Of a stretch of DNA of 64,000 nucleotides, positions 4,004 to 25,800 are shown piece after piece. A program made the translations under genes and the position numbers. The stretch spans positions 20,183-84,182 of the forward strand of contig ONHS01000002.1 of assembly GCA_900317715.1 (NCBI GenBank), given 5' to 3'. The first letter of the stretch is position 1. Each line of letters opens with the position of its first letter. Origin of the DNA: an uncultured Bacteroidales bacterium. Lineage in GTDB: Bacteria; Bacteroidota; Bacteroidia; Bacteroidales; WCHB1-69. A model generated the notes under the pieces. The model was not told where the DNA came from. It did not search any database and worked only from the letters and a program-made list of their open reading frames with translations.

Positions 4004-4146
4004 TTTCTAATTTTAAATTGGCGGCAAAAATACAAAAAAAATGGTTATGAGACGCACGTCAATGCGTCTCTGCTGCGTGCAAAGAGACCCCCTTTACAAC
4101 GTGTAGAGACGCATGAGCGTGCGCCCCTACTATGACAAAAGCTTTA

Positions 4147-4446
4147 TTATCTGAATTCAAACAGATTGGTGAACCCCGTCACCGTGAAAATTTTGATAAG
4201 ATTCTGGTTTGAGCAGACGATGGACACCTTATGGCCGCGAGGCTTGGCTTCCTTAAGAATGCTGAGGAAAATGCGGAGACCGCTGGAGGAGATATAATCC
4301 AATTTCTCGCAGTCAAGTACAATATCCTTGTCCACGTCAAGGATCGGTTGAATCTCTTTCTCCGTTTGGGGAGAGGCGGCGGTGTCCAAACGGCCTTCAA
4401 AGAAGACCACAATCTCGTCGTTCTGTTCTTTAATGGTGGTTTTCAT
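4147..4446 (-). CDS. STAS-domain anti-sigma-factor antagonist (SpoIIAA/RsbV-like)
   Basis: 99 aa with the motif LDYISSSGLRIFL, carrying the phosphorylatable Ser context of STAS proteins. It is the last gene of the partner-switching operon. Confidence 0.85.
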   Translation of the reverse strand: MKTTIKEQNDEIVVFFEGRLDTAASPQTEKEIQPILDVDKDIVLDCEKLDYISSSGLRIFLSILKEAKPRGHKVSIVCSNQNLIKIFTVTGFTNLFEFR

Positions 4447-4460
4447 TTTTATTGATAATT

Positions 4461-4871
4461 TTAATTTATTTTTTTCACAAGTGTAAGTATATTTTTCCCG
4501 TCCGTATGCTGATAGGTCACGGTGTCCATAAACTGCCGAACCAGGAGAATTCCCAATCCGCCGATGGACCGTTCCTCGGCCGGAAGGTTAATGTCGGGAT
4601 CCTCCTTGCCAGTGGGGTCGAAAGGGCTCCCGCGGTCGGCGATGGTGATGGTAAGCAGTCCGTCGGCCATGGAGGCGTCAATCCACACCTCGCCGACAGT
4701 GCCTTCCGGATAGGCGTAGTTCATCACATTGACCACAGCTTCCTCCACGGCCAGGTTGATATTCATAGACATCTCCATATCCATAGCGTTCTCTTCGCAG
4801 ATGGTGTCGATGAATGTCGCCAACAAGGGGACCTCCTGAACATCGTTGTGCAAAGTGAGCGTGTATTCCAT
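4461..4871 (-). CDS. RsbW/SpoIIAB-like anti-sigma serine kinase (HATPase_c)
   Basis: 136 aa. N-box-like EEAVVNVMNYAY and G-boxes DRGSPFDP / GGLGILLVRQFMD. Confidence 0.85.
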   Translation of the reverse strand: MEYTLTLHNDVQEVPLLATFIDTICEENAMDMEMSMNINLAVEEAVVNVMNYAYPEGTVGEVWIDASMADGLLTITIADRGSPFDPTGKEDPDINLPAEERSIGGLGILLVRQFMDTVTYQHTDGKNILTLVKKIN

Positions 4872-4876
4872 AGCGT

Positions 4877-7695: not shown

Positions 7696-8321
7696 ATCTG
7701 CGAAATTCGGAAGAGAATATAGTCCAACAGTTTGTTCAGCAGCCACGCCAACAGAAAGTAAATCAGGGTGGTAATCAGCAATGGGAGCAGGTCTTGGCCA
7801 ACACCGTTGCGTATGGCTTGGGTGGCCAGGGTAAGGTCTTGGATGGCCACATAACCCACAACGGAAGTCCCTTTCATGGTGGCCACAGCCTGGAATTTGA
7901 AGGCAGGCATTCCGATGCGGAGGGCTTGGGGCAGCACAATGTAACGCATCGTCTGCCATTTGGAGAATCCCAGCATCTGCCCCGCCTCCATCTGTCCGCG
8001 TCCCACAGCGTCGATGGACGATTGGAGATTCCCGGCCACGAAGTTGGCGAAGATCAGTCCAATGGCTATCGAAGCCGCCAAAATCGGGCAGTGGCCGCCG
8101 AACAGCAGGTAGAAGACAATCAGGATCAGCACCATCAGCGGGGTGCCGCGCACCACCACCTTCCACCATTTGGAGACATTCTGCAGCCAGCGATGGCGGT
8201 TCTGTGAGAGTGCATATAGGCCGCAGCCGACCAGCGTGCCTATCAGCAACGACAGCGCGGAAATGACCACTGTAGCCAGCAACCCTTTCAGTATCAGCCA
8301 AATGCAATCCTCTAAACCCAT
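7692..8321 (-). CDS. Polar amino-acid ABC transporter permease (His/Glu/Gln/Arg family)
   Basis: Motifs RGTPLMVLILIVFY and EAGQMLGFSKWQTMRYIVLPQA (EAA loop). Start placed at ATG 8321 because the upstream TTG at 8354 overlaps the -7 box. Confidence 0.88.
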   Translation of the reverse strand: MGLEDCIWLILKGLLATVVISALSLLIGTLVGCGLYALSQNRHRWLQNVSKWWKVVVRGTPLMVLILIVFYLLFGGHCPILAASIAIGLIFANFVAGNLQSSIDAVGRGQMEAGQMLGFSKWQTMRYIVLPQALRIGMPAFKFQAVATMKGTSVVGYVAIQDLTLATQAIRNGVGQDLLPLLITTLIYFLLAWLLNKLLDYILFRISQI

Positions 8322-8351
8322 GACTTTTGCTTCACCTATACATTGAATTGG

Positions 8352-8359
8352 CAAAAATA
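8352..8359 (-). promoter_or_regulatory. Bacteroidota -7 promoter box (TAnnTTTG) for the ABC / partner-switch operon
   Basis: The minus strand reads TATTTTTG. It lies about 30 nt upstream of ATG 8321. Confidence 0.5.
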
Positions 8360-8391
8360 CATTTTTTTACCAATCAAAAAAGCGGGGTAAT

Positions 8392-8427
8392 AAAAAAAAA
8401 GCACCCCAAACTTGTGGTTTGGAGTGC
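8392..8427 (-). terminator. Intrinsic terminator downstream of tRNA-Lys
   Basis: Minus strand: GGCACTCCAAAC-CACAA-GTTTGGGGTGC followed by T9. Confidence 0.6.
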
Positions 8428-8433
8428 CTTTTG

Positions 8434-10438: not shown

Positions 10439-10701
10439 TTCTTACAATTATTTTTTGTGAACTAATATCATAACATATTTGACGGCGAAAATACAAAAAA
10501 CATTAACTCGAAACGAAATTTTATCAATTAAAAAATCTCATTTTAGTTCACTGAGAATTTTGTAATTTCGCCGTTCAAATTTCTAATGTTATGACCTCAC
10601 GAACTGACTATATCAAAAAACTTGGCTTAGAGCCACATCCGGAAGGATGCACTAAACGATCGACAAACAGGTTTCAACTATAATGGAATAATTTCAAAAA
10701 A

Positions 10702-11142
10702 ATGCCAACTCTCACCATCCGACATAAACGACATTGGTACGAGCCGAAGTTGCCGCACGCGGTCTTCCTGAACGGCTACTTTGTGGGTATGCTGAAGGAC
10801 GACCAGTTGCGGGGCGAGGTGCCGCCGGGCAGCTACGCGCTGCGGGTGCAGTTCGGCGGGCAGGTTCCGATAGGCAAGAAGGGCAAGAGCATCGATTTGT
10901 CGGTGTCCGCAACGGAGCAGGTGGAAGTCCCGCAGAATGGCGAGGTGGTGTGCGAGTTCCACGACCGCGAACGACTGTGGAACATCCTTTTCGACATCGA
11001 CCTCGTGCTATGGGTGGTGTCGTGGTTTGTCACCATGCCGCCGATTTATAAAATACTGTCAGATACGTTTTTCGTGATTTGGTTGGTAAGGTTGATATTG
11101 ATACGAAAGAGATATTATAACATTGTAAAGACAATTCGTTAA
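10702..11142 (+). CDS. Hypothetical protein with a C-terminal membrane anchor
   Basis: 146-aa ORF with consistent codon usage and two C-terminal hydrophobic segments. No family recognised. Confidence 0.45.
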   Translation: MPTLTIRHKRHWYEPKLPHAVFLNGYFVGMLKDDQLRGEVPPGSYALRVQFGGQVPIGKKGKSIDLSVSATEQVEVPQNGEVVCEFHDRERLWNILFDIDLVLWVVSWFVTMPPIYKILSDTFFVIWLVRLILIRKRYYNIVKTIR

Positions 11143-11218
11143 CATTATTTTGTATTTTTGCGCGCTCTTACCGATGGGGTGAGAAATAAAGAGAATTAAT
11201 CATTTAAAATTTGAAAAT

Positions 11219-12112
11219 ATGAAAAACACCCTCTTTTTATTAGCCGCAACAATGTTGCTGACCGTTTCCTGCCGCAATGGCAATTCCCAAAGCCAAACGA
11301 CGAACAACCCGCAGGAGCCCACCTTCACCATAACCACAAAAGAAAGTGTCTCGTTACTCTTCAAGAACGACAAGCCCATGATTATCGGGCTGGTAGATAA
11401 GGAAAATGAAATGCCCAAAGAGCTTTTCCTTGGCTCCTACGACGACGACCTGCTCGCAACGCTGATGCCCGAGGGTGCTTCCCGTTCGGCCATCAACGCC
11501 TTTCTGGTCATTGATTCATTACATACAATCCTCTTTGACGCTGGATTAGGCGCCGACAATGGCGGAAGTCTGCTGGAAAGTATGAAAAAAGCTGAGATAG
11601 AACCTGCTAAGGTCACAGCGGTATGTCTTACGCACCTGCACTTTGACCATATCGGCGGGTTGCTGCTCAAAGGCCAGGCTGCATTCCCCAACGCCACCCT
11701 CTACCTCTCGAAAGAGGAGTATGACGCATGGGGCGACGGCGGTACAATGGCAAAGAACAACGGCATGTGGAAACAGGTGATGGAAGCCTACAAAGGCCAT
11801 ATCAAGACTTTCCACGACGGTGAGAAACTCTTCGACGGTTTGGTGGTTGCCGAACTTGCGCCAGGCCACACCCCGGGTCACACTGTTTACACAGTGGACG
11901 GGTTCTGCCTCATCGCCGGCGATTTGTTGCATGCCCAAGATCTCCAGCTGGACCACCCGCAGTTCTGTGCCCGCTATGACACGGATCCCGCGCAAGCCGT
12001 CACCACGCGCACCCGCATCCTCAAGAGCGTCCGCGACAACGGTCTGTACTTTGCAGGCGCCCACTGCTACGACCATTTCATTAACCTCCGCGACCGCAGC
12101 AAGGAGCAATAG
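11219..12112 (+). CDS. MBL-fold metallo-hydrolase lipoprotein
   Basis: Lipobox LLTVSC, HLHFDHIGG (HxHxDH), later PGHTPGH. Confidence 0.85.
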   Translation: MKNTLFLLAATMLLTVSCRNGNSQSQTTNNPQEPTFTITTKESVSLLFKNDKPMIIGLVDKENEMPKELFLGSYDDDLLATLMPEGASRSAINAFLVIDSLHTILFDAGLGADNGGSLLESMKKAEIEPAKVTAVCLTHLHFDHIGGLLLKGQAAFPNATLYLSKEEYDAWGDGGTMAKNNGMWKQVMEAYKGHIKTFHDGEKLFDGLVVAELAPGHTPGHTVYTVDGFCLIAGDLLHAQDLQLDHPQFCARYDTDPAQAVTTRTRILKSVRDNGLYFAGAHCYDHFINLRDRSKEQ

Positions 12113-12179
12113 AGCCGCCAATTCGTTCGAGGAAGTACATTCTTTGCAAATATCTCTGCACACCAACCGCAAAAAATTG

Positions 12180-12187
12180 TATTTTTG
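12180..12187 (+). promoter_or_regulatory. -7 promoter box TATTTTTG upstream of the 7TM-AraC gene
   Basis: Sequence context ttgTATTTTTGccg. The heptamer array lies between it and the ORF. Confidence 0.45.
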
Positions 12188-12213
12188 CCGCGTTGGAGAT
12201 GAGGGAGTAGCCC

Positions 12214-12297
12214 CTAAACTCTAAACTCTAAACTCTAAACCCTAAACCCTAAACTCTAAACTCTAAACCCTCAACCCTAAACCCTAAACCCTAAACC
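12214..12297. repeat. Tandem array of 12 heptamers CTAAAC[CT], a permutation of CCCTAAA
   Basis: Read directly: ctaaact x3, ctaaacc x2, ctaaact x2, ctaaacc, ctcaacc, ctaaacc x3. Confidence 0.95.
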
Positions 12298-12304
12298 CAA
12301 AGAA

Positions 12305-13495
12305 TTGCTCACCACCCACCTCATATTATTCGCCGCCAACCTGACCTTCATCGTCACCCACCTTTACGGGTGGCTACTGAAGTGGTTCTACCGTCCCAAA
12401 GCTTACGGGGAGCACTTTCGCGAGTTGTTCCCGGCGCAGCGGATCGTGGGGGCGACCTACCTGCTGCAGATTTTCGAACTCCCCTACCTGCTGCAGATCG
12501 GCGATAGCGACGCGCTGATCTTCGTCAATGCCTTCTCGCTGCTCTTCCTCTCCATCCAGTTGATCGTCATGAGCGAAATCTATTTCTTCCCAAAGCAGAA
12601 ACATAGGCGACAATACCCTTTGCTTTATCTGCCGGCATTGATCGTGCTACTACCCATGTTCCTGCAGGCCATGAAAATCATCCCCCTCCCCGAGGGCTGG
12701 CGTACTTGGGTCATAGTAGCTGTGAGCAGCCTCTTTGCCTTCTACTTCGGTCTTAATATCCACATGCTCTGGAGAATAGAAAAGGCCGTGCGGCGCGCCA
12801 ACGAGGAACAGTACGCCGACAGCGACGACTTCCCCGTGCGCTTCGCCAACATCATCAAATGGATGCCCACTTTCGTCATCATATTGTTAGCCATCAACTT
12901 CTATGCCGACGACCCGTGGATGAAGTTTGCCCATGACATCTTCTTCATCTTCGCCAACGTCTGGTTCTGTATCCTAACCCTTAACCCTTGGCGGAAAGTC
13001 AATTCGGAATTCTCCATTCAGCATTCAGAATTAGAGACTCAAGAGTCGGAATTAAAAGAAGTGGAAGATGATAACAACAATGATACTGAAGAAGAAGATG
13101 ATGATGATGTCACTTCGGAATTGACGGAGCGAAACAGCGAAAGCATCCATCTTTTGAGCGATGCCAAGTACGACGAACTGGCGCGCCACCTCGAGAAGTT
13201 GCTCTCCGAGGACCACATCTTCACTGAGCCGCACATCACCATCGACACGCTCATCCAGCACCTCGGCACCAACACCAAATACCTCGCCGAAGTGATTCGT
13301 CGCAGCGGTTACCAATCCTTCTATGACATGATCAGCCAGCACCGCGTGCGCTACGCCATCGCCCTCATCCATCAACATCCCGACGAACTTTTGGCCGATA
13401 TCTCCGACCGTTGCGGATTCTCCTCCCAAGCCTCCATGGCCAAAGCCTTCAAAGCCCAAGGGAAAGAACCGCCGTCACGGTATAGAGCCTATTGA
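12305..13495 (+). CDS. 7-TM membrane protein with an acidic linker and a C-terminal AraC-type HTH
   Basis: About seven hydrophobic helices, linker EVEDDNNNDTEEEDDDDV, and a C-terminal AraC HTH (ITIDTLIQHLGTNTKYLAEVIR...ISDRCGFSSQASMAKAFK). The start is uncertain: TTG at 12305, with no nearby in-frame ATG. Confidence 0.75.
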   Translation: MLTTHLILFAANLTFIVTHLYGWLLKWFYRPKAYGEHFRELFPAQRIVGATYLLQIFELPYLLQIGDSDALIFVNAFSLLFLSIQLIVMSEIYFFPKQKHRRQYPLLYLPALIVLLPMFLQAMKIIPLPEGWRTWVIVAVSSLFAFYFGLNIHMLWRIEKAVRRANEEQYADSDDFPVRFANIIKWMPTFVIILLAINFYADDPWMKFAHDIFFIFANVWFCILTLNPWRKVNSEFSIQHSELETQESELKEVEDDNNNDTEEEDDDDVTSELTERNSESIHLLSDAKYDELARHLEKLLSEDHIFTEPHITIDTLIQHLGTNTKYLAEVIRRSGYQSFYDMISQHRVRYAIALIHQHPDELLADISDRCGFSSQASMAKAFKAQGKEPPSRYRAY

Positions 13496-13519
13496 CTGTT
13501 GGCTAGGGAAGAGGGACTA

Positions 13520-13620
13520 GGGATTAAGGTTTTGGGTTTATGGTTTAAGGTTTAGGGTTTAGGGTTTATGGTTTTGGGATTAAGGTTTTGGGGTTAAGGT
13601 TTTGGGGTTAAGGTTTAGGG
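13520..13620. repeat. Degenerate tandem array of about 14 heptamers, [GAT]GGTTT[AT] (TTTAGGG-type), inverted relative to 12214-12297
   Basis: gggatta aggtttt gggttta tggttta aggttta gggttta gggttta tggtttt gggatta aggtttt ggggtta aggtttt ggggtta aggttta ggg. Confidence 0.9.
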
Positions 13621-13660
13621 ATGAGAGCCTAAGTTCCTACTCCAAAGTCATCTGCAATGC

Positions 13661-13745
13661 TTTTTTCCTTTAGACGGAAAATTTTTCCTCTAGGCGGAAA
13701 ACAATGTACTTCTTGTGGAAATTTCCGCAGGAGGAAAATCCATTA
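13661..13745 (+). promoter_or_regulatory. Operator-like direct repeats of a TTTTCC-N7-GGAAAA palindrome upstream of the giant gene
   Basis: ttttttcctttagacggaaaa / tttttcctctaggcggaaaac, then ggaaatttcc..ggaaaatcc. All lie just upstream of the -7 box at 13759. Confidence 0.4.
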
Positions 13746-13758
13746 CATATATAAGTAG

Positions 13759-13766
13759 TACTTTTG
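13759..13766 (+). promoter_or_regulatory. -7 promoter box TACTTTTG for the giant surface-protein gene
   Basis: The TAnnTTTG match lies 46 nt upstream of ATG 13812. It overlaps the track's TTG start at 13764, which is therefore rejected. Confidence 0.5.
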
Positions 13767-13811
13767 CGGCCAAAATTTTTAACAGTTACATTCGTAAAAG
13801 AAACTACCATT

Positions 13812-16800
13812 ATGACAACCAAACTGATCATTCTCATTGTTGTCGGCCTCCTTGTTTTCGGGGCCCTCTTATGCATCATCGTCAAGGCCTGGCGTTACCG
13901 CCGCAACCACCCTGACGAGGTCTATTGGCCCTACAACGGACCTCTGCACAAGAAGAAAAAATCAAAAACCTGCCACAAGACCCTCCTTGTGGCGACACTG
14001 ATCCTATCCACATTGATGTGGACGAACGGTTTGATGGCTCAGAACGGGACTCCGGACGGTACCCGGGAGCACCCTTACCCCATCGGTGACATAAGCACCC
14101 TCATCTCTTTTGCACAATGCATCAACAACAATCAGCCTTTCGCATTCGAAAACGGCAAGTTCGTCTTCGATATAGACGGCAACATTCCGGCGGGCGGCGC
14201 GGACACCTACTTCGAGCAGACCGCCGACATCGACATGAACAGTGCCAATTGGAACATTCCTATTGGCAAGCAAAACAAAGGATTCGAAGGCACTTACTTA
14301 GGCGGTGGACACAAGATCATGAATCTGACGCTTACGGCCGACAATCGGGCACTCTTTTGCCACTCCAAAGGCCATATTTCTGACCTCACCATCGAAAGCC
14401 CCGTGTTCGAAGGCACTTTTAACGACGGCGGGGCATTAGCCACCTACGTGATGGGCGGTACTATCGACAACTGTCATGTCACGGGCAACGACTTGGTGTT
14501 CAACGGCAAAGATTGTGGTGCCCTGATAGGTTGGGTAGGTCAGTTGTCCGATTATTTCAAAGCTGATAGTATCAGGATCTCCAACTGTTCCAACCGTTGC
14601 CATATCACCTCCACATACCAACAATCGAACGCAAACGACCAGAACTCCGTGGCCGGCGTGGTGGCGGTCATCAACGCGCGGCACTACGTGGTGACTCGTT
14701 GCTTCAACACCGGCGACATCACTTCCACCTACAGGCCCAAGTTCCAAAACGACGAACTCTGCTTCGCCGGTGTGGTCGGCAGAGGCCTTTTGCCCAACTA
14801 TCCGTCTGAGATCACCTACTGCTACAACAGGGGCGACATCACCGCCCACTGCGGATACCTTGGCGGCGTGGCCGGCTTTTTCAACGACGAAGCCGGTATC
14901 AGCAACAGCACACGATGCGCCATCGACTACTGTTTCAACACCGGCAATATCACCGGCGAGTGCGTGTTGAATTCTGACGATCCGTCCGTACACACCGATG
15001 CCGACTCCAGTCTCAATGTCTTCTCCCTCGGCGGTGTGGTGGCGCCCTGCAAGACCCCGACGCGTTACTGCTTCAACACCGGCAATGTCACATTGACGAA
15101 GCACCCGCACCCGAAGTTCAACATCTGGGGCGACCAGGGGGTGGCCGGCGTGGGCAGCAGCGCCAAGCACTGCTTCAACGTGGGCGAAATCAACAACTAC
15201 GAGGAAAGAAACGGACGCGCGGCGGGCGTGGCTCGCGACACGGCGGCTTTCTGTCTCAATGCTGCATGCGTCTATGACCGCAACCCCAAATACACCTTCT
15301 CCCCGCACAACATCGCCAGAATAATCATCGGAGATTGTTTCTCCGACGCCCAGATGTCTGTCGATGGACAGGACGGCAACCTCTACCCCACTTCGAAAAT
15401 CATCGGCGAGTCCTCCAAGGGACAGCTCGGCAAAGACTGGATTTACGAGGATGGCCGTTACCCGCGACTCAAGTGGACCGACACCTGCGATTGGGCCCGC
15501 GACATCGCCAAAGTGGCCTGCACCCCCATCATCCTGGCCGACACCGTCACCGACATCCACCATGTGAAAAACGGCATCAGGCTGACCGGCTGCGACAACG
15601 GCGTGGTGTGGAAAGCCCCCGAGGGCAACTGTTTGTTCGTTGACCCGACGCTTGCCAACACAGCGTGCTCCAACAACGCCATCCAACCGGCATTGCAGCC
15701 CTTGTGCGGCGATTTCGTCACCGTGGCGGCTACCCTGAACGGCGACACCATCAAGACCGTCACCTTGCTTCGCAGCGTGGCCATGCCCCACGACACCCTC
15801 ACCGTCGATAACCTCGACGACCTGAAGACACTGCGCGACGGTGTCAACACCGGCAAAGCCTTCCCCTACAAAAGCTACGAAGTGCCTCGCTACGCGGATG
15901 GGGTCACCTTCAAGCTGACCACCGACCTCGACATGCAGAGCGAGAGTCCTTGGGCGCCCATCGGCTCGGTCTTCAGCGGCAGCCGCTTCGCGGGTCATTT
16001 CCTCGGCGGCGGCCATACCATCGACAATCTCAGTCTCGATGATGCCACTCCTTATATCTACAAGAATGCCAATGTCGGCGGTCTTTTCGGAATGCTGAGC
16101 GGTGAGGTGCGCGACCTGACCTTCACCAACCTTCATGCGAATTCCACCACCATAGTGGCGGGAGCCGTCTGCGCCCTGATGAACGGCGCCACCATCGAAA
16201 ACTGCATTGTCAAGGGGCATATCGAGACCTCCAGATCCAGCAACAACTACGCCATCAGCGGCACCGCCGGCCTGGCAGGCGCGTCGCTGACCACTCGCGA
16301 TCAAGACTTCAACTTCTTTTGTCGCGACACCATCCGCAACTGCGTCAACTATGCGGACATCATCACCCATGTCGGCCGCGGCGCCAACATCGCCTCCCAT
16401 AGTGTCGGCGGCATTATCGGTCACGGCGGCGTGGTGATCGACTGCGCCAATGCGGGCGACATCTCCGGCGGCAGCGAATGCGGCTACATCGGCGGCATCG
16501 GCGGCGATATGACCAGTGCCCTGCGCTGCTTCAACACCGGCCGCGTCACCATCGCAGAGGCTCCCCAAGCTATAGACTACTTCGTCGGCGGCGTGGTGGG
16601 AAAGAACGAATATGACAGCACCATCATGTACTGCTATAATGCCGGAACCGTCGATGGCAGTGACCGCAGTCCAGTCGGTGGCATCGTCGGCTATGGTGCC
16701 CCGCGATACTGCTACATGACCAACACGGTAACCGGCAGGGGCAAATATCTCGGCAGCATTGCGGGCACTGTAAATCCCAATACCCGAGATTGCTATTACG

Positions 16801-19800
16801 ACAAGCAGATGTCCCCCCTGGGTGGCGAAAATGGACAAGATGCTTCCGGACGATCCCTTGTTGGTCTTGAAACCACCGGCATGCTGGGCTCTGCCCTTCA
16901 AAGTTCGTTGGGAGACCCCGCAAACTGGATCTTCACCCCGGGACTATATCCCCAGCTTGCAATATCCGCTGATGTGGAGACGCAGCACGCCGCGTCTCTA
17001 CGGGCCCAACTATCTCGCGTTTCCGTCATGCCGGTCGTGCTGGGTCACGGCCAAAACTGGATGTCCGCCCACGACAGTATTCCCCTCCGCGGCTGCGATG
17101 AGCACCACTTCTGGACAAAGCTCCAAGGCTGTGTAACAGTTGACAGTTGCCATGTCACTGCCACGAATCGCGACATGGGGGTGATCGAACTTGCCGCCAC
17201 CATCGACAGCGTCCCCTACCGTTTCGTCACGCTTAAGTTCAACATGGACGAGAAACACGCCCTCGTCATCAAAAACGCCGCGCAGTTCGACACCATGCGG
17301 ATGGTCATCAACAAAGGTGGCTACTACCACTACAGCGACAGCACTTTCCACACAGCCATTCCTGCCAATGCCGACTCTACCGACTTCGTCGCCATTGACG
17401 ACGGCGGCAACGAACGTTTCTTCAAGCTCATCACCGACATCGACATCAATGATATTAAGGAAGAGGGGCATGTCAGAGGATGGATTCCCGTCGGAGGATT
17501 CGCCGACGACTGCTGCGCCATTTATGAAGGCAACCCCTTCAAGGGAACTTTCGACGGCTGCGGCCACACCATCAGACATCTGACGTTCCAGCGGTATGAC
17601 AACTTTCATCCCACGGATTTCTGCGACCATCACCAAGGCTTGTTCGGCACGGTGGATGGCGGCACGGTGAAGAACCTGCGCATCGCGCAAAGCGACACCA
17701 CGTTGGGCAACAGCAGCGCGTTCCTCTGCAGTGTGAACAAAGGAGGCACCCTTTACCATTGCGAAATCGACTCCTGCTCCCTGACCATCCGTTACGGCGC
17801 TTCCGATGCTGAAAGATACAACCATGCCTTGCTCTGCGCCAAGAACGAAGGCGGCACCATCGACAGCTGCCAGGTGAGAAACAGTGTGATAGCCCCGGAT
17901 TCGTCAAGCCTTGCATCCATTTCCAACATCGGTGGTGTCTGCGCACTCAACGACCGTGGCGTCGTCAGCCGCTGTATAGCAGAGCATCTCTCCATAAACG
18001 ATCCTCGTCAGGAACAAGGAGCACTGCAGAGTGTGGGTGGCATCTGCGGAAAGAACTTCCATGGACAGCTGCAGTTTGGCACCATAAAAAACAGCCAGAT
18101 CACCCTCAAAATGAATCTGCCGCACAAGTTTATCGGCGGCATCTGCGGTCTCAGCGGCTACGATCCCGATAAAGACACGGACGAACAAACCTACGCCCAT
18201 ATTCCTTCTGTCATTAGTGATTGCAACAGCGATTCGACCATAATCAACGCCTACACTCATGGGGACAATGATAGCACCAAAAAGATAATGAATATCGGCG
18301 GCATTGTGGGTTCCTGCCAAGGACGCATCATCCAACTCGAACGATGCTCCACCATGGAAAACAGCCGCATTTTGGCTGTCGCCGACACCGTGGGCGGTAT
18401 CTGCGGTCGCTTCTGCGGCGAAGGAGGCGAGAGTTACTGTAATACCTGTGGAAACAACGCTTCGGTGACGGGCAACGACTATGTGGGCGGCATTGTGGGG
18501 CTTATGAGTGGCGCCCAACTGCACGAAGGCAATAATCAGGGCGAGGTACGTTCTCTCATAGACTTCGAATATAACTCAGGCTACTATGCCGGCGGCATAG
18601 CGGGTGCCGTGGTGGGAGAATCCAGCCTCTTCAGTTGCAACAACAGTGGCACTGTCGCAGCCGACTCAAGCTATGTGGGCGGCATTGCGGGTGCCTTGAT
18701 GGGGGAGAGTAACCTCTTCCTTTGCTCAAACCACGGTGATGTCAGCGGTTTCAACCAAGTGGGTGGTTTGGCCGGCCTTATCCTAAAAGACGCCTGGTTC
18801 GAAGAGAGCACTAACAACGGCCTTGTGAGAGGCATCGCCCAGGTGGGTGGATTGGTAGGCTATTTGAAAAGTTCCACGGGAAACAGATGTAGCAAAAACA
18901 ACAACTATGCAGACACCATACACTTCTCCGCCATGGGCGGCGGTGTCTGCGGCTATGCCGAAGACACCACGATGCTTGAAGGCTGCTCCAGCGTGATGAT
19001 TCTGCCATACGATACAATAATAAGAATACAGAGTGTGGAAGAGCTCGGACTAATCCGCGACAATGTAAACAATGGCAGCAACAGCTACGAAGGCATAGTC
19101 ATCGTGCTGGATTGGGACCTCAACTTGGGTAATGGATGGACTCCCATCGGTACACCCAAGCATCCTTTCCGCGGCACCTTCGACGGTCAAGACCATACCA
19201 TCATTTTCGGTATCTACAACGAATCAAATGACTACCAGGGATTCTTCGGTTATATGCAAGGTACCGTCAAGAACGTCAATTTCTCTCAATGCAGTGTCAT
19301 CGGCCGCAACTATGTAGGCGTTATCGCGGGCTACTGCAACGGCACCATCTCGAACTGCTATTCTTATCGCGAGAAGGTGGAAGGTGAGAAATATGTCGGT
19401 GGTCTGGTCGGCATGGCCAGCTATTCGGAAATCCAGGACTGCTTCAACGGCAACAACGTTTTTGGCGAGCAATACGTGAGCGGCATTGTGGGCGACTTCG
19501 CATCGTGCAAGAACGACAACTGCTATGGCACAATGAAATATGATCTTTATGGCGGCAACGTGAGCCGCTGCTACAACTACGGCATGGTCAGAGCCACGGG
19601 CGATACCAGCCACGTGGGCGGCATCGCCGGCTTCACCTCGGCCGAGGTGAAACATTGCTACAACAGCGGCATCGTCGATGGCAAAGACTTTGTGGGCGGC
19701 CTCTGCGGCCTGCTCGATGGCGACAACCTCCACCACTGCTACAACGCCGGCTATGTGTCCGCCACCGGCAACAACAAAGGAGCCATATGTGGAAGTCTCG

Positions 19801-22800
19801 ATTTACAAAACATAATGTACAATTGCTTTTACGACCGCCAAATGTGTACGGTGCAGGACAACAACGCCTCGGGCTACAACACGCTCAAGATGACGGGCAC
19901 CGTCCTCCAAAATGTCTTCGGCACGGACTACTGGTCGTACCACGACAATGAATATCCCACTCTCAAAACGACTAAAAAAGACAGCACCTATTTCCGTATT
20001 TCGGTGAAGCCGTTGTTGCTCCCGGGCAATATGCCGGTGGACAAAGTCGTGCAACCTTTCTGCGGCGTCACGGGGAATGCTCTTGGCATCCAAGTTGAGT
20101 GGTCGCGATACGGGACAGCAACACCAACAGTGGACACTATACATCTGGCCGACAAAGACAGCATTACGCTGATCGGTTGCGGTATGGATACGTTGATAGT
20201 GAGCCACCCCAGCTATGGCTTCGAACGCCTGGTGCCGATTGTGGTAGCCGCAAAAGAGGCCACGGTGGAGACCGTGCACACATGCGGCAGCATCTACAAG
20301 TGGAACAAGAACAATAAGTATTATTACGAAACGGGATTCTACACCTGTGATACTTGCGCTAATAAACCGGCCTTGGACCTTACCATCACTCCTGTCACAA
20401 TCACCTCAACACTTATCAATAGCACTTGCGAGACGATCCCTGACGGCGCAGTGCTTGTATCGGTGACAGGGGGGCCCGGCAACGGATTCCGCTACCTGTG
20501 GACAAATTCCCTCACGGGAGACACCATCAGCAACACACCTGCCCTCACGAACATAACAGCCGGCTATTATTCAGTGACCGTGACCGATTCGCTTTTCCCG
20601 ACCTGTGAACAAACAAGTCCGCAACAATTGTTCTCATTTGACTCGGTAAAATTGACCATCAAGAGTTGTGACGCAAACAAAACCTACGACGGCACAGCGC
20701 TCACGGGCAACCGCTATGTGGTGACCGAGCAGGGCTTCGAACCCGATACCCTTCCCGCCGACAGCTTCGCCATCCTCGCCGACGGCGACACCCTGCGCGT
20801 CACGTTCGACAGTAACGCCGTCAATGCCGGAACATACGATAACAAATTCACCTACAGCATCTCCAACGGCATCGACCACAGCTGCCACTACGATGTCAAT
20901 ACGATTTTCGGCACTCTCTCCATCACCCCGCGCCCCGCCACCATCATCGTCAATGACACCAGCAAAACCTACGGAGATGAAGACCCCGTTTTCTCCGGTA
21001 CAGTCACTGGACTTGTCAACAGCGATAGCCTCGTAATCCACTATTTCAGGAGTTCCAACATAGAAACCGTGGGTAACCACCCCGACATACTGACCGCCGA
21101 GCTAAACGAAAACTATACGGTGACCATCGACTCGGGGGATCTCACCATCTCCTGCCGCGATCTCTTGAACAAAATTGACACTGCCAATTGGCCCGACGAC
21201 ATCGAGAACTGGAACGAATGCTATTCCCCATCCAACACCAACGCGCTGCCTTCTATCGACAGTATCAAAAAACTGATAATCAAGCAACTGATACTGGCCA
21301 ACAACGACACGTTGCAACCCGATGCCTTCCAAGTGCTCACAAAGGATTCGACGATATTGGCTAACAACTGCGATTGGAAGTGGGTACGCACCTATACCGT
21401 CAAGATTTCCAACCCCAACTTTTGCGATTCGACAAGCAGAGTCATTTACGTGAGCGGCGGCGACCAGTCGGCTCCTGTGCGCTCTATCAACGATCTTTGG
21501 AAATACGGCACATTATATCAGGATGCCTGCTTGGCCAGTTTCGACATAGACCATTTTTTCCCCCAAGACACGGATCTCTTCGACGACTGCAGCCAAATGA
21601 CCATCACCCACAAGGACACCCACACCGGCGACGACCACTACGGATGGACGATCCGCCGTTCGTATGTGGTGACGGATGCCTGCGGCCATACCATTTACGA
21701 TACCATCGAGGTCTCCGGCCGCGACCAGACGCCCCCTGTGGCTAGCAACCCCGAGGTTAAAAACAACACCCTATGGGCCGATTCTGCCCAGTGCCTCTGC
21801 GACAGCATCCGTACTATCCATGACATAGAGGAATTGACGACTATCTTCGGTATCAGCGACGCCTGCTCTGGCGAGGATGTCCGCCTGGTGAGTTCGTCGA
21901 AAACGCTGAAAACCGGCGAACACTGCGACTACACGGTGATCATCGCCTACGTGGTGGCCGATGCCTACGGCAACTCGACGACCATCTATCATGCGCAGTT
22001 CATCCAAGACACGATAGGGCCTACCTTCGAGATCGTCCCCCATGACACTACCCTGTGCGTTGACCCCGACGGCGACTACGGAAACACCGTCACCCGTGTC
22101 GCAGCCGAAATAACGATTACGAATCTGCGCGACAGCTGCACAAAAGTGCAGGATAATTTCAGTATCCAAAGCTCAATAGATACTTCCCGCTTTAACATTC
22201 AACATCCTCGGGGGTATAGAATAACTCAGGGCGAATCTGACAATGGCGTGCGACACTACAAGCAACTCTGGACCGTGACCGACTCCTGTGGCAACACCAC
22301 CTACGATTCGATCTCCATCCACGTTCGTCCTTTGCCGAAAATCACTGAAATCAACGTACCCGATCAACACATCATCTACGGCAATCCTATCACGGATGTG
22401 TGGATATATCATCAGTACTCCGACCTTTCCATAACGGGTTCGTCCGGCATTGGATTGGACTCGCTCGGATGCTCTGTAGAACATAAAAAAGACCAAAATA
22501 ATAATGAATATGACAGAGTGTATGGCGATCCTGAATTCGCCGTCTCTAACGCCAAGTTTCTCGTTACGGCCACCAGCCGCCAGGGATGGGGCTGCAGCAT
22601 CGATAGCAGCACCTTCAGCATCAAGGTGGAACCGAGACCTATCGTCATCACCGCCACCGACGCCACCAAGAAGTACGACGGCACCCCGCTGACCTCGAAC
22701 AACTACACCTGTACGACGAACGATAACAAACCTGCCCTCGTCCATGATGACGTTATTTCACGCTTGTCCTTCAGCGGCAGCCGGACTGATGTAGGTTCAT

Positions 22801-25800
22801 GCGAAAACACCCCCGGCAATGCAAAAATCACCGCCCCGAACGACACCACCATCGACAAGACCTCCAGCTATTCGATTGACTACTACCCCGGGACGCTGAC
22901 GGTAACGGTAAATGACACCCTCATCAAGGTTATCCCCGGCAGCGCAAGCAAGGTTTACGACGGCACACCGCTGACGAAGAATGAGCACGACGACTTCACC
23001 GTGACGGGCGTTCCCGAAGACCTCACCTGGACCGCCACCGCCGACGGAACGGTGACGAACGTAGTTCCCGGCGTGGGCGAGAAGGCCGTGAATGCGGTGA
23101 CCTCGTTCCAAATCTTCGACGCCGATGGCCATGATGTGACCGCCTATTTCACCAATATCCATAAAGACTCGATTGGCACGCTGACCATTCTTCCCAAAGC
23201 GGTGACCCTGACCAGCGGTGGCAAGACCCGCGAGTACAACGGCACGGCACTGACGAACGATGAGGTGGAAGGCAGGAATGCCAACGGCCTGACAGTAGAG
23301 ACCGGCTGGGTCGGTGAAGAGGGGGCAACCTACACCTTCACCGGCAGCCAGACAATCGTCGGCAAATGCGCGAACGCCTTCGACTATACCCTGAAAGAGA
23401 ACACGACAGCTTCCAACTACCACATCGTCAAGACCGAAGACACGCTGGAAATCACCGCCAACACAACGCCGATTGTGATCACCTCTGCCAACGGCAGCTG
23501 GATGTATGACGGCAACACGCACACGAAGCCGGAATACACGGTGACTTACGGCGGCACAGGCATCAACGCGGTGCCTGGCAGCAACGGCCTGCAGTTCGAG
23601 CTGCCTATCGGCGACACCCTGACGGTCACTCCGACGTGCGGCGGGGTCACGACTTTCAGCGACAACAGCGCGAACAACAACAGCTACGATTTCACCATCC
23701 AGCATCAGGATCAATATGCATACATCACCGCCACTTACGGCACGCTGAGTATCACCGCCAACACAACGCCGATAACGGTTGTCCCGGCTGGCGGCACCAA
23801 GCCCTACAACGGCACGCCGCTGACGAAGACGGCACAAACAGATTTCACCGTGACGGGCGTTCCCGAAGGCTTCACCTGGACAGCTACGGCGGATGGCACG
23901 GTGACGAATGTGATTCCCGGAGACGGCGAGAAGACCGTGAACGCGGTGTCAGAGTTCAAGATATTCCGAGGCACTGCAGATGTGACCGCCTATTTCACCA
24001 ATATTAATACAACCTCGACCGGCACGCTGACCATTCTTCCCAAAGAGGTAACCCTGACCAGCGGCAGCAAGACACGTGAGTTCAACGGCACGGCACTGAC
24101 GAACGCTGAAGTGGAAAGCACAAATGCTAACGGTCTGACAGAGGAGACCGGCTGGATTGACGGCGAGGGCGCAACCTACAGCTTCACGGGCAGCCAGACA
24201 ACCGTCGGCAAGTGCGTGAACGCCTTCAGCTATACCCTGAAAGAGAACACGACAGCTTCCAACTACCACATCGTCAAGACCGAAGACACGCTGGAAATCA
24301 CCGCCAACACGACGGCAATCAAGGTTGTCCCGGCTGGCGGCAGCAAAACCTACGACGGCACAGCGTTGACGAAGACAGCGCCCGAAGACTTCACCGTGAC
24401 GGGTGTGCCCGAAGGCTTCACTTGGACAGCCACCGCCGACGGCACCGTGACGAACGTTGTTCCTGGCACTGGCGAAAAATCCGTGAACGCGGTAACAGCG
24501 TTCAATATCTTCCAAGGCATCACGGATGTCACGAACCAGTTTGCCGGTATCAACAAGAGTGCGACCGCCACTTTGTCTATCACCCCGGACACGGTGACCC
24601 TGACCAGCGGCGGCAAGGCCCGCGAGTATAATGGTTCGGCACTGACGAACGCCGAAGTGGAAGGCAGGAATGCCAACGGCCTGACAGTGGAGACCGGCTG
24701 GGTCGGTGAAGAGGGGGCAACCTACACCTTCACCGGCAGCCAGACAATCGTCGGCAAATGCGTGAACGCCTTCAGCTATACCCTGAAAGAGAACACGACA
24801 GCTTCCAACTACTACATCATCAAGACCGAAGACACGCTGGAAATCACCGCCAACATGGCGGAGATCACGGTTGTCCCCGGCAGCGGCAGCAAGGTTTACG
24901 ACGGCACGCCGCTGACGAAGACGGCGCATGGCGACTTCACGGTGACGGGGGTGCCTTCAGGCTTCACCTGGACAGCCACCGCCGACGGCACGGTGACGAA
25001 CGTCACACCAGGAGCGGGCGAGAAAGCCGTGAATGCGGTGACCTCGTTCCACATCTTCGACGCGGAAGGCGACACTGTGACCGCCTATTTCGCCAATATC
25101 GACACAAGCGAGACCGGCACGCTGACGATCACCCCGGTATCCGTCCTTGTCAACGCAAATGCGAATAGCAAGATCTACGGCGAAGCAGATCCAACGCTTA
25201 CCGCCACGGTCACGGGCGTACTCGAAAACGACGATTTCGTCCCGAGCTACACCATCTCGCGCGAAACCGGCAACAATGTCGGTCAATACATCATCACGCC
25301 CACCGGTGATGTCGCCCAAGGCAACTATACCGTCACCTACGACACGGCACTGTTCACCATTCTCTGCCGCAATATCGTGGAACCCACCAATTGGCCTGCA
25401 AACCTCACAAATCAGAACAATTGTTTCGCCAACGCGGACATGACAGTCCTGAAAGATGCAAGCGAGATACAGACACTCTTTGCGAACTGCAACCCCGTCA
25501 CGAATGCCAGTGAAATCACCGTGACGGCGCAGGACAATGCCACTGCGACCAGCGATTGCGAATGGACGTGGATCCGCACCTACAACATCTCGATTACCGG
25601 TGGTTGCGCTTCGACGACGAAGACGATGAGCGTTAGCGGCGGCGACCATACCGCACCGGCCTTGACCGGCACTTGGCCCGGCAACATCGAAAATGTGAAC
25701 AGCTGCTTTAACGACACCTTGCAGAACATGCTCTACACCAACGCCCAGGTGAAAGCCCTCTTCTCCGACTGCGGAGAGTTCACCGTGGACAGCACCTTGA

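What the first reader, a model, noticed from the sequence alone, without database searches (positions are those of the whole stretch)
12214..13620. Gene bracketed by inverted arrays of plant-telomere-type heptamers: (CCCTAAA)n upstream, (TTTAGGG)n downstream
Twelve tandem heptamers CTAAAC[CT] (12214-12297) lie between a -7 box (12180) and the start of the 7TM-AraC gene. About 14 degenerate heptamers of the complementary type (13520-13620) begin 25 nt after its stop.

Consequences I can infer:
- The transcript would carry a C-rich 5' leader and a G-rich 3' trailer able to pair over about 85-100 nt. That could cause mRNA end-to-end pairing or create an RNase III substrate.
- 12262-12297 has five C3 tracts spaced by 4 nt. 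This is a canonical G-quadruplex potential on the template strand.
- Period 7 allows slipped-strand length variation without touching the reading frame.
- The two arrays form a long inverted repeat in DNA that could mediate inversion or cruciform formation.

The gene lies directly upstream of the giant surface-protein gene, so any switch here could control it.
Basis: partly seen in the sequence, partly recalled or inferred. Interest (0 to 1): 0.65.

Follow-up and report, generated by a model that had tools for sequence, protein, structure and literature searches.

The report
Complementary heptamer repeat arrays flanking a regulator gene
The two telomere-like 7-base repeat arrays around this rumen-bacterium regulator gene are real, but they belong to a class of fast-evolving intergenic heptamer repeats common in this lineage and already described in other bacteria, and their mutual complementarity is a strain-specific feature, not a conserved switch.

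Summary
(CCCTAAA/CTCTAAA)x12.4 at 12212-12298 sits between a Bacteroidetes-type -7 box and the TTG start of a multi-TM AraC gene. A degenerate (TAGGGTT)x14.7 array at 13518-13620 starts 23 nt after its stop. The arms are 80% complementary over 90 nt.

The organism is an uncultured rumen Bacteroidales. In about 1 Mb of related loci, period-7 arrays outnumber every other period (121, against 6 at period 6 and 27 at period 8). They have about 40 different units and are enriched outside ORFs.

C-rich leader arrays and G-rich trailer arrays recur at orthologues of this gene. Only the window strain, out of about 100 distinct orthologous loci, has strong leader-trailer complementarity. Its 98%-identical relative L001 lacks the upstream array and has 6.7 downstream copies. 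Five assemblies of the window strain are identical, so there is no sign of rapid switching. I found no inverted form and no nearby recombinase.

The placement (G-rich strand non-coding upstream, coding downstream, both within 50 bp) matches the rule published for G4-forming heptamer repeats in Xanthomonas and Nostoc.

Verdict: a new member of a known kind. RNA end-pairing and G4 formation are physically plausible but not supported as conserved functions.

The parts
12180..12187 (+). -7-type promoter box TATTTTTG of the AraC gene. It matches the Bacteroidetes consensus TAnnTTTG. The transcription start is inferred at about 12195.
   Evidence: Regex hit. The same 'AAAAATTGTAyTTTTGCCGC' context is conserved upstream of orthologues L001, L002, L003, L067 and L071. 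The transcription start itself was not measured.
12212..12298 (+). Upstream (5' leader) heptamer array, CTCTAAA/CCCTAAA x12.4. It is G-free on the sense strand and ends 6 nt before the TTG start.
   Evidence: TRF score 132, 92% matches; sequence read.
12268..12298 (-). Canonical G-quadruplex motif on the template strand (five G3 tracts, 4-nt loops). The complementary C-rich strand has i-motif potential.
   Evidence: Regex and ViennaRNA G-quadruplex fold of the antisense strand. Prediction only.
12305..13495 (+). Gene for a 396-aa membrane-anchored AraC-family regulator (conserved multi-TM N-terminal domain plus C-terminal HTH_18).
   Evidence: ORF. Pfam HTH_18 E=6.5e-13. 277 homologues, all rumen/gut Bacteroidales or Prevotellaceae.
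13518..13620 (+). Downstream (3' trailer) degenerate heptamer array, TAGGGTT/TAAGGTT/TTTGGGG type, x14.7. It is C-free on the sense strand and starts 23 nt after the stop. It has only relaxed-loop G4 motifs, at 13506 and 13555.
   Evidence: TRF; inverted-repeat match to the upstream array; G4 regex.
13662..13740 (+). Operator-like 20-nt repeats: TTTCCTTTAGACGGAAA, TTTCCTCTAGGCGGAAA and the palindrome TTGTGGAAATTTCCGCAGGAGGAAA. Probable binding sites of the AraC regulator. Not part of the arrays, but they bound the variable spacer.
   Evidence: TRF period 20. At least 2 motifs occur downstream of 34/110 distinct orthologues, against 25/2000 control windows. Homology to relatives resumes at 13662.
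13759..13766 (+). -7-type box TACTTTTG of the downstream giant gene.
   Evidence: Regex. The same box is conserved in L001, L007 to L010 and others.
13812..27881 (+). Giant (4689 aa) probable cell-surface protein gene, the conserved downstream partner of the AraC gene.
   Evidence: ORF. Pfam MBG_2 (1.1e-22) and C-terminal Fib_succ_major (1.2e-18). The synteny is conserved in most orthologous loci.

Best explanation
The two arrays are long simple-sequence repeats of the heptanucleotide class. They are products of replication slippage, which in this rumen Bacteroidales lineage (as in several other bacterial phyla) strongly favours 7-nt units and accumulates in untranslated intergenic DNA.

They sit in two tolerated positions. 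One is the 5' leader, between the -7 box and the start codon. The other is the spacer between the stop codon and the next gene's operator.

They have the tolerated polarity. The mRNA-sense strand is G-free upstream, which gives an unstructured leader suited to Shine-Dalgarno-independent initiation in Bacteroidetes. It is G-rich and C-free downstream.

Because both arrays use the same unit family in the two preferred polarities, they are complementary. That complementarity is a by-product specific to this strain, not a conserved regulatory device.

Array length and sequence drift quickly between strains but are stable within a clone. Any effect on AraC expression (leader length, template-strand G4) would therefore be slow evolutionary tuning, not an on/off switch.

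Shown: the anatomy, the clade-wide heptamer excess, turnover among orthologues, lack of conserved complementarity, and clonal stability. Inferred: the slippage origin, the selection on polarity, and the absence of a dedicated function.
For: - Period-7 arrays dominate. There are 82 in 754 kb, against 2 at period 6 and 16 at period 8, and none in shuffles. After adding metagenome loci and removing duplicates there are 121, against 6, 27 and 11 at periods 6, 8 and 9.
- There are about 40 canonical units.
- By my crude ORF calls, 46 of 82 arrays lie outside genes although 91% of the sequence is called coding.
- Orthologue survey. G-free CCCTAAA-like leader arrays occur in L060 (x15.4), L071 (x4), L073, L002, L129 and a sheep strain. 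8-mer TAAACTTC arrays occur in L009, L074 and L131. G-rich TAGGG-type trailers occur in L001, L136 (x11.4), L069 and L068. Many orthologues have neither.
- Complementarity is unique to the window strain: ddG -78.8, next best -22.8.
- L001 (98% aa identity) has identical flanks but 6.7 copies downstream, and CAATAAC x3 instead of the upstream array.
- Five assemblies are identical over 4191 nt.
- Neighbouring arrays share units about 2.5 times more often than random pairs, equally in direct (13) and inverted (13) orientation.
- Published precedents:
  - Heptamers are the commonest unit among 5-11-nt long SSRs, and polymerase slippage was proposed (Mrazek 2007 as summarised in PMC4679880).
Against: - The window holds only three clear heptamer arrays in 64 kb. 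The two largest share a unit family and flank one gene, which is unlikely for independent events and suggests a common origin or local constraint.
- Two further genes in related loci are also bracketed by complementary arrays (L144 EttA-like, L008).
- The same unit family recurs at this gene over 53-100% protein identity, more persistent than pure drift predicts.
- The polarity rule is only weakly significant across the clade with my crude gene calls: mean sense GC skew -0.11 upstream against +0.23 downstream, p=0.045.
- No transcript ends or within-population read data were available.
Confidence: 0.6

Rival explanations
1. G-quadruplex / i-motif element. The G-rich strand of the arrays folds into G4. 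On the template strand in the leader it would impede or modulate RNA polymerase. On the non-template strand or RNA after the stop codon it would promote pausing or termination, or insulate the giant gene's operator.
For: - Canonical G4 motif on the - strand at 12268-12298.
- L001's trailer is five perfect TTTAGGG units and L136 has a G-rich trailer of 11.4 heptamer units.
- No hairpin terminator lies between the stop codon and the next promoter in the window, whereas many orthologues have a hairpin there.
- Position and polarity match those of the G4-forming heptamer repeats of Xanthomonas and Nostoc (PMC4692102).
Against: - The window's own trailer has only relaxed-loop motifs, and ViennaRNA does not choose a G4 for it.
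- Most heptamer arrays of the clade are AT-rich and cannot form G4.
- Orthologues replace the arrays with non-G4 units (CAATAAC, AATCCTG, TGAAACC) or nothing.
- The authors of the Xanthomonas study found no regulatory role.
Confidence: 0.13
2. Functional 5'-3' UTR pairing. The mRNA spans both arrays, and the C-rich leader pairs with the G-rich trailer over 80-90 nt. This would occlude the start region, create an RNase III substrate, or protect both ends.
For: - Cofold -112 kcal/mol, with a net gain of -75.7 against -31.7 +/- 6.1 for shuffles.
- 80 leader-trailer pairs in the full-length MFE.
- A second gene (L144, EttA-like ABC-F) is bracketed by G-free arrays upstream and their complements downstream, and L008 shows a similar bracket with opposite polarity.
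- L071 shows modest complementarity, z about -5.
Against: - Only 1 of about 100 distinct orthologous loci has strong complementarity, and the 98%-identical L001 lacks the leader array altogether.
- In L144 the complementary blocks are not in nested order, so no long collinear stem forms.
- Metatranscriptome contigs cover the CDS and the giant gene but not 13384-13821 (weak evidence).
- Inverted same-unit neighbours are no commoner than direct ones.
Confidence: 0.1
3. Evolvability or contingency locus. Slipped-strand changes in leader copy number tune AraC expression and, through it, the giant surface protein. The analogue is the AGAT repeats in the 5' UTR of Moraxella uspA2.
For: - The array lies in the 5' leader of a regulator whose conserved partner is a giant surface protein with an operator-like repeat in front.
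- Copy number, unit and presence differ among strains of 90-98% identity.
- Array sequence differs more than the flanks in run X3.
Against: - Five assemblies of the strain, from different samples, are identical in both arrays.
- The arrays are not in the ORF or between promoter hexamers.
- The same class of arrays flanks housekeeping genes (EttA-like in L144), as in Xanthomonas, where a phase-variation role was judged unlikely.
Confidence: 0.1
4. Invertible-gene switch. Recombination between the inverted arrays flips the AraC gene away from its promoter.
For: 90-nt inverted arrays flank the gene while the promoter lies outside them.
Against: - All 7 contigs carrying the gene show one orientation.
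- The 'opposite strands' joint is just the upstream array aligning to the downstream one.
- No recombinase domain in the Pfam-scanned ORFs on either side of the locus (39.8-50 kb was not scanned).
- The longest perfect inverted match is 20 nt.
- Orthologues without arrays keep the same gene order.
Confidence: 0.03
5. Artefact: plant telomeric reads from feed mis-joined into bacterial contigs.
For: The unit equals the plant telomere repeat. Word depth over the arrays jumps to 400-1950x in bovine gut metagenomes.
Against: - The arrays are internal, degenerate (CTCTAAA, TAAGGTT) and flanked on both sides by bacterial sequence.
- They are identical in five assemblies made with different pipelines.
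- Variants sit at the same position in orthologues.
Confidence: 0.01

Closest known systems
G-quadruplex-forming heptameric repeats GGGNATC of Xanthomonas and Nostoc (Rehm et al. 2015, PMC4692102)
   Same: - Tandem 7-nt units with one G3 tract per unit.
- Intergenic location.
- Placed within 50 bp upstream of an ORF with the G-strand non-coding, or within 50 bp after the stop with the G-strand coding. The window shows both placements.
- Extensive length and sequence variation between close relatives.
- Inverted pairs noted.
- No function established.
   Different: - The unit is GGGTTTA (plant-telomere type), not GGGAATC or GGGGAYT.
- Different phylum.
- The arrays here are long (12-15 units), against a preference for four.
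- In this clade G-rich units are a minority among many AT-rich heptamers.
- Genome-wide enrichment of this unit is not shown.
Long simple sequence repeats (LSSR) of 5-11 nt in prokaryotes, heptamers predominant (Mrazek, Guo & Shah 2007, as summarised in PMC4679880)
   Same: Head-to-tail short units far longer than chance, mostly non-coding, period 7 predominant, sporadic phylogenetic distribution, and slippage proposed as the origin.
   Different: Rumen Bacteroidales were not among the genomes surveyed (my knowledge; I did not read the original paper here). The complementary bracketing of a gene is not a described feature.
TAACTGA heptamer direct repeats upstream of start codons in Beggiatoaceae, cyanobacteria and a few Bacteroidetes (MacGregor 2015, PMC4679880)
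   Same: Heptamer arrays in forward orientation a few nt upstream of start codons. They are also found in Bacteroidetes (Paludibacter, Flexibacter, Gramella, Aequorivita), with other heptamer arrays nearby. A role in translation initiation (S1 or Csp binding) was proposed but not tested.
   Different: That case has a single dominant unit, whereas this clade has about 40 units. Those sets mostly have 2-6 copies. No downstream complementary arrays are described.
Cyanobacterial STRR heptanucleotide repeats (Mazel et al. 1990; from my own knowledge, not retrieved here)
   Same: Families of tandem heptamers in intergenic DNA, function unknown, lineage-specific.
   Different: Different units and phylum. 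A literature search for STRR returned nothing in the held library.
5'-UTR repeat tuning of uspA2 in Moraxella catarrhalis (AGAT)n (Attia & Hansen 2006, cited in PMC4679880)
   Same: A tandem repeat between the promoter and the start codon whose copy number differs between strains and could tune expression.
   Different: That repeat is a tetranucleotide and its copy-number effect was shown experimentally. Here no effect has been shown, and five assemblies of the window strain are invariant.
Plant-type telomeres (TTTAGGG)n
   Same: Identical consensus unit and G4 potential.
   Different: Internal, short and degenerate. Present in both orientations around a bacterial gene on contigs of 18-84 kb. 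One of many heptamer units in the clade. The resemblance is best read as coincidence.

Membership tests
Heptanucleotide long simple-sequence repeats (LSSR) | Head-to-tail copies of a 5-11-nt unit, much longer than chance | tested here: met
   12.4 and 14.7 copies, TRF scores 132 and 101-139. No period-7 array in shuffles.
Heptanucleotide long simple-sequence repeats (LSSR) | Non-coding location | tested here: met
   Both arrays lie outside ORF 12305-13495. An in-frame TAA at 12278 lies upstream of the start.
Heptanucleotide long simple-sequence repeats (LSSR) | Period 7 over-represented in the lineage | tested here: met
   121 period-7 arrays against 6 (period 6), 27 (period 8) and 11 (period 9) in about 1 Mb of non-redundant related loci. 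The window alone has only 3 clear ones.
Heptanucleotide long simple-sequence repeats (LSSR) | Length and sequence variation between close relatives | tested here: met
   Window 14.7 copies against L001 6.7, with identical flanks. The upstream array is absent in L001. Other units occur in L002, L067 and L070.
G4-forming heptameric repeats (Rehm 2015) | At least 4 consecutive G3 tracts, one per 7-nt unit | tested here: met
   Five tracts on the - strand at 12268-12298. The downstream array has only relaxed-loop motifs in the window, but five perfect units in L001.
G4-forming heptameric repeats (Rehm 2015) | [quoted passage not shown] | tested here: met
   The upstream array ends 6 nt before the start with the G-strand on -. 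The downstream array starts 23 nt after the stop with the G-strand on +. The rule is quoted from PMC4692102.
G4-forming heptameric repeats (Rehm 2015) | Unit GGGNATC / GGGGAYT, enriched genome-wide | tested here: not met
   The unit is GGGTTTA. In related loci this unit family occurs mainly at this gene, plus L069 303-366. The complete genome is not available.
G4-forming heptameric repeats (Rehm 2015) | G4 formation shown biophysically | not testable with these tools
   Needs CD or thioflavin-T assays on oligonucleotides.
Phase-variable (contingency) SSR locus | Repeat inside the ORF or between promoter elements, so that unit changes switch expression | tested here: not met
   The array lies downstream of the -7 box (12180-12187) and upstream of the start (12305). 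Period 7 is outside any frame.
Phase-variable (contingency) SSR locus | Length heterogeneity within a strain or population | tested here: inconclusive
   Five assemblies are identical, but these are consensus sequences. Logan contigs break inside the arrays, and no raw-read runs were offered.
Invertible DNA switch (inverton) | Both orientations present in populations | tested here: not met
   7 of 7 contigs show the same orientation. No genuine inversion joint was found.
Invertible DNA switch (inverton) | Site-specific recombinase encoded nearby | tested here: not met
   Pfam scans of the large ORFs at 2.0-8.3, 8.5-12.1 and 13.8-39.9 kb show no integrase or invertase domain. ORFs at 39.8-50 kb were not scanned.
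Eukaryotic plant-type telomere | Terminal position on a linear replicon, long homogeneous array | tested here: not met
   The arrays are internal to contigs of 18-84 kb with bacterial genes on both sides. They are 87-103 nt long and degenerate.
Start-codon-proximal heptamer repeats (MacGregor 2015) | Forward-oriented heptamer array within a few nt upstream of a start codon | tested here: met
   The array ends 6 nt before the TTG. Similar arrays lie in the leaders of orthologues and of the downstream gene in L007-L010.
Start-codon-proximal heptamer repeats (MacGregor 2015) | Unit TAACTGA | tested here: not met
   The unit is CCCTAAA/CTCTAAA.

The most novel reading that the evidence does not exclude
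In this rumen Bacteroidales lineage, complementary heptamer arrays that bracket single genes form a deliberate RNA device. Examples are the AraC gene here, an EttA-like ABC-F gene in L144, and a four-helix-bundle gene in L008. The G-free leader and C-free trailer of one mRNA would pair end to end, controlling translation start, RNase III processing or decay. Slippage would provide rapid evolutionary retuning.
Probability: 0.08. Interest if true: 0.7.

Novelty: new member of a known kind. Interest (0 to 1): 0.3.

Why it matters
It extends the little-studied phenomenon of abundant intergenic heptamer repeats to uncultured rumen Bacteroidales. Until now this was known from Xanthomonas, Burkholderia, cyanobacteria, Beggiatoaceae and a few Bacteroidetes.

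The same position and polarity rule reported for G-rich heptamers in Xanthomonas and Nostoc appears here, in a phylum with Shine-Dalgarno-independent translation. That hints the rule reflects a general constraint on UTR composition and not a lineage-specific regulator.

There is also a practical point. Plant-telomere-like (TTTAGGG)n stretches in gut metagenome contigs need not be plant contamination.

For the gene itself nothing unusual is demonstrated. The regulatory link worth pursuing is the conserved AraC-operator-giant-surface-protein module, not the arrays.

Tried and rejected
- When sub-stretches were laid, Logan contigs all broke inside the arrays. Neither copy number nor minor alleles could be read. 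The only 'opposite strand' joint was the upstream array aligning to the downstream one.
- Metatranscriptome contigs (X26-X29) cover parts of the MBL gene, the AraC CDS and the start of the giant gene. They do not cover the leader junction or 13384-13821. The high depth over array words comes from other loci. So transcript ends remain unknown.
- Rfam: no family in 12000-13900 at E<0.01.
- The sigma-70 and terminator scan is not informative for Bacteroidetes. It found no terminator after the stop.
- A viral-contig scan for (CCCTAAA)4 gave 22 hits, 7 of them on contigs named GVMAG (giant-virus MAGs), which are irrelevant here.
- Literature searches for STRR and for TTTAGGG in prokaryotes found nothing relevant. 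One search was malformed.
- My ORF-based gene calls are crude (91% called 'coding'). The 'inside gene' counts (36/82, 51/165) are overestimates, and the polarity statistic (p=0.045) is weak.
- Mobile element with terminal inverted repeats: considered and rejected. Orthologues keep the same AraC-to-giant-gene synteny with or without arrays.
- Plant DNA capture: considered and rejected. Units are degenerate, and many other heptamer units occur in the clade.
Full report
**1. The observation**

The sequence and Tandem Repeats Finder confirm both arrays.
- The first is at 12212-12298: period 7, 12.4 copies, 92% matches, score 132. Its units are CTCTAAA/CCCTAAA.
- The second is at 13518-13620: period 7, 14.7 copies, 70% matches, score 101. 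At period 14 it gives 86% matches. Its units are TAGGGTT, TAAGGTT and TTTGGGG.

The arrays are reverse complements of each other, 80% complementary over 90 nt and 1229 nt apart. The longest perfect inverted match is 20 nt.

Between them lies ORF 12305-13495 (+), which has a TTG start and encodes 396 aa. The protein has a conserved hydrophobic N-terminal domain and a C-terminal HTH_18 AraC domain. The start position agrees with 29 aligned homologues.

A TAnnTTTG-type box, TATTTTTG, lies at 12180-12187. The upstream array therefore occupies the inferred 5' leader. The + strand has no G from 12211 to 12301 and no C from about 13518 to 13627. Five C3 tracts with 4-nt loops lie at 12268-12298.

Shuffled controls give no period-7 arrays. 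Five separate metagenome assemblies carry the identical locus. So this is neither chance nor an assembly or plant-DNA artefact.

**2. Organism and gene context**

The regulator has 277 homologues. All those that are named come from rumen or gut Bacteroidales and Prevotellaceae. The nearest genome locus, L001, is an uncultured Bacteroidales MAG with 97-98% aa identity.

The gene is followed by 20-nt operator-like repeats at 13662-13740, then by a second -7-type box (13759), then by a 4689-aa protein gene (13812-27881). That protein has MBG_2 domains and a C-terminal Fib_succ_major domain. The regulator-operator-giant-gene module is conserved. Operator-like motif pairs occur downstream of 34 of 110 distinct orthologues, against 25 of 2000 control windows.

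Compared with L001, the window carries an extra 1.8 kb (10504-12303) just upstream. It holds a 146-aa ORF, an MBL-fold gene and the leader array. The promoter motif itself is shared. Homology of relatives to the window stops at the AraC stop codon and resumes at 13662. The downstream array thus fills a hypervariable spacer. That spacer is 47 nt of array in L001, about 640 nt of unrelated DNA in L003 and L067, and almost nothing in L004.

**3. The arrays belong to a clade-wide class**

In 754 kb of related loci plus the window there are 82 period-7 arrays (TRF score >=40). Period 6 has 2, period 8 has 16 and period 9 has 17. After adding metagenome loci and removing duplicates, the counts are 121 against 6, 27 and 11.

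There are about 40 canonical units. Most are AT-rich, for example AATTCTC, AAAGTGG, AACCAAT and AATTGAC. More than half of the arrays lie outside even my over-generous ORF calls.

Tandem arrays also fill the leaders of other genes. In L007-L010 the giant-gene homologue has CAATAAC, AACTTGA or 11-mer arrays between its -7 box and its ATG.

Words from CTCTAAA- and TTTAGGG-type arrays reach depths of 150-1950 in bovine gut metagenome and metatranscriptome contigs. They have many different flanks, often other heptamer arrays. Some of that depth may come from plant telomeres.

**4. Behaviour at orthologues of this gene**

Among about 150 loci, G-free leader arrays recur in these forms:

| Unit | Loci |
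|---|---|
| CCCTAAA family | L060 (x15.4), L071 (x4), L073, L002/L003 (2-3 units), L129 (hexamer CCCTAA), a sheep strain |
| TGAAACC x12 | L070 |
| 8-mer TAAACTTC, x7-16 | L009, L074, L131 |
| CATTAAC x7 | L081 |

G-rich trailers recur in these forms:

| Unit | Loci |
|---|---|
| TAGGGTT x6.7 | L001 |
| G-rich heptamers x11.4 | L136 |
| TAGGGAT | L068, L069 |
| AGCTTAGG | L070, L071 |

Other orthologues carry different units (TGGTTAT plus AATCCTG in L002), a plain hairpin, or nothing. L001 lacks the CCCTAAA leader array and has CAATAAC x3 in its place.

I cofolded 120 nt upstream with 150 nt downstream for about 100 distinct loci. The window gives ddG -78.8 kcal/mol. The next best values are -22.8, -20.6, -20.3 and -19.8, and most loci are indistinguishable from shuffles.

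So the compositional polarity (G-poor leader, G-rich trailer) and the unit family tend to persist in the closer clade. The long complementary duplex is peculiar to one strain.

**5.

(a) RNA pairing. It is thermodynamically strong if one RNA contains both arrays. The dimer folds at -112 kcal/mol, with a net gain of -75.7 against -31.7 +/- 6.1 for shuffled trailers. The MFE of the 1453-nt RNA has 80 leader-trailer pairs. It is not conserved, and no transcript evidence reaches the trailer.

(b) G4. There is a canonical motif on the template strand upstream. Downstream there are only relaxed-loop motifs.

(c) Slippage.
- Between strains there is clear variation, as shown above. In run X3, 7 of the roughly 60 array positions covered differ, against 9 of about 280 flank positions.
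- Within the strain there is none. Five assemblies are identical over 4191 nt apart from one SNP.
- Minor alleles cannot be excluded, because assemblies are consensus sequences and Logan contigs break inside the arrays.

(d) Inversion or cruciform. There is one orientation in 7 of 7 contigs. There is no genuine inversion joint. No recombinase domain was found in the Pfam-scanned ORFs on either side of the locus (39.8-50 kb was not scanned). The longest perfect match is 20 nt. A 1.2-kb spacer makes cruciform extrusion implausible on established grounds.

(e) Control of the giant gene. The regulator probably does control it, given the conserved operator and synteny. The arrays are not part of that conserved logic.

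**6. Local relationships between arrays**

Among 96 pairs of heptamer arrays within 3 kb of each other, 13 share a unit (at least 6 of 7 positions) in direct orientation and 13 in inverted orientation. Randomly paired arrays match at 5.7% and 5.2%. The window's own pair is not in this count.

Neighbouring arrays thus tend to share units, in either orientation. This fits local seeding or template switching better than selection for hairpins. Some inverted pairs are adjacent and would form long hairpins right after a stop codon (L012/L015, L018, L040).

Two other genes are bracketed by complementary arrays.
- An EttA-like ABC-F gene in L144 has about 500 nt of G-free arrays upstream and their complements downstream. 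The blocks are not in nested order.
- A 123-aa four-helix-bundle gene in L008 is bracketed with the opposite polarity.

These cases keep the functional-pairing idea alive at low probability.

**7. Comparison with what is known**

Heptamers are the commonest unit among prokaryotic long SSRs of 5-11 nt, and polymerase slippage was proposed as the cause (Mrazek et al. 2007, as summarised in PMC4679880).

MacGregor (2015) described TAACTGA heptamer arrays directly upstream of start codons in Beggiatoaceae, cyanobacteria and five Bacteroidetes. She suggested S1 or Csp binding.

Rehm et al. (2015, PMC4692102) described G-rich heptamers GGGNATC in Xanthomonas and Nostoc. [quoted passage not shown] They vary extensively between close relatives, are mostly transcribed, include inverted pairs, and have no demonstrated function.

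The window's two arrays are one instance of each preferred placement. The identity of the unit with the plant telomere repeat is best read as coincidence among many units.

**8. Verdict**

Best explanation, at confidence about 0.6: these are slippage-generated heptamer SSRs in tolerated UTR or spacer positions with tolerated polarity. Their complementarity is a strain-specific by-product.

Rivals: a G4 element (0.13), functional 5'-3' pairing (0.10), slow expression tuning or contingency (0.10), an inversion switch (0.03) and an artefact (0.01).

Novelty: a new member of a known kind. Interest: 0.3.

Noticed in passing
window 13662-13766: Operator-like 20-nt repeats: TTTCCTTTAGACGGAAA, TTTCCTCTAGGCGGAAA and the palindrome GTGGAAATTTCCGC. 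They lie just upstream of the -7-type box TACTTTTG of the giant gene. Similar motif pairs follow 34 of 110 distinct AraC orthologues, against 25 of 2000 control windows. This is probably the binding site through which the membrane AraC regulator controls the giant surface protein.
   Followed up: partly
window 32645-32736, 33350-33464, 36190-36390, 36990-37070, 37518-37644: Five intergenic tandem arrays (period 20-32) built on the palindrome GTTGCGTTGCCAACGCAAC. They look like REP-type stem-loop elements multiplied in tandem.
   Followed up: no
window 50055-63394 (GC drops to 35% at 52-60 kb): Low-GC island with defence/toxin-antitoxin-type genes: DUF4062 plus HATPase_c_4, WYL-WCX, DUF3825, a 1018-aa BspA-LRR/Sel1 protein, DUF6939, DarT and, further on, HepT. 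It is probably horizontally acquired.
   Followed up: partly
window 51266-51356: A 12-nt tandem array TGCAACTAATAT x7.6 inside ORF 50055-51635 (DUF4062/HATPase_c_4 protein). It is an in-frame coding repeat.
   Followed up: no
window 4040-8428 and 10504-12303, compared with L001: Relative to the 98%-identical relative L001, the window has two extra segments. The second carries a 146-aa ORF without Pfam hits and an MBL-fold gene (11219-12112, with a weak anti-Pycsar Apyc1 hit in precomputed data). It is inserted just upstream of the AraC promoter.
   Followed up: partly
L144 3030-3549 and 5225-5369: An EttA-like ABC-F gene (3557-5224) is preceded by about 500 nt of G-free heptamer arrays (CACTCCC, CACTCAT x25, CACTAAA, TAATTTT). 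It is followed by their complements (GAGTGAT, TAGTGTT x10.6, GAATTAA x7). This is a second, larger case of complementary bracketing.
   Followed up: partly
L008 1963-2487: A 123-aa four-helix-bundle (23S-IVS-type) gene is bracketed by AAAAGGC/AATAGGC x10.9 upstream and CTATTGC x4.3 downstream. The arrays are complementary but with the opposite polarity to the window.
   Followed up: no
L012/L015 7085-7135; L018 2812-2924; L040 11799-11902: Back-to-back or closely spaced inverted heptamer arrays. Examples are TTGAAAG x3.9 followed by TTTCCAC x3.4 right after the AraC stop, and AGAATTG/CAATTCT 47 nt apart. They would fold into long imperfect hairpins, possibly terminator substitutes.
   Followed up: no
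L067 1473-2180 and L071 1577-1882, compared with window 27140-27871: In some relatives the AraC gene is preceded by the 3' end of another giant-protein gene. Several MAGs hold two or more AraC paralogues (for example L012 and L016, L027 and L050). The regulator-giant-gene module is therefore a multi-copy, partly tandem family.
   Followed up: no
window 29400-31273: A second AraC-family regulator (347 aa) lies directly upstream of a DUF2807 'adhesin head GIN domain' gene. This is another regulator and surface-protein pair.
   Followed up: no
window 733-785: An Rfam hit above the gathering score to the Acido-Lenti-1 sRNA family (46.3 bits, E=2.6e-07) in a Bacteroidales genome.
   Followed up: no
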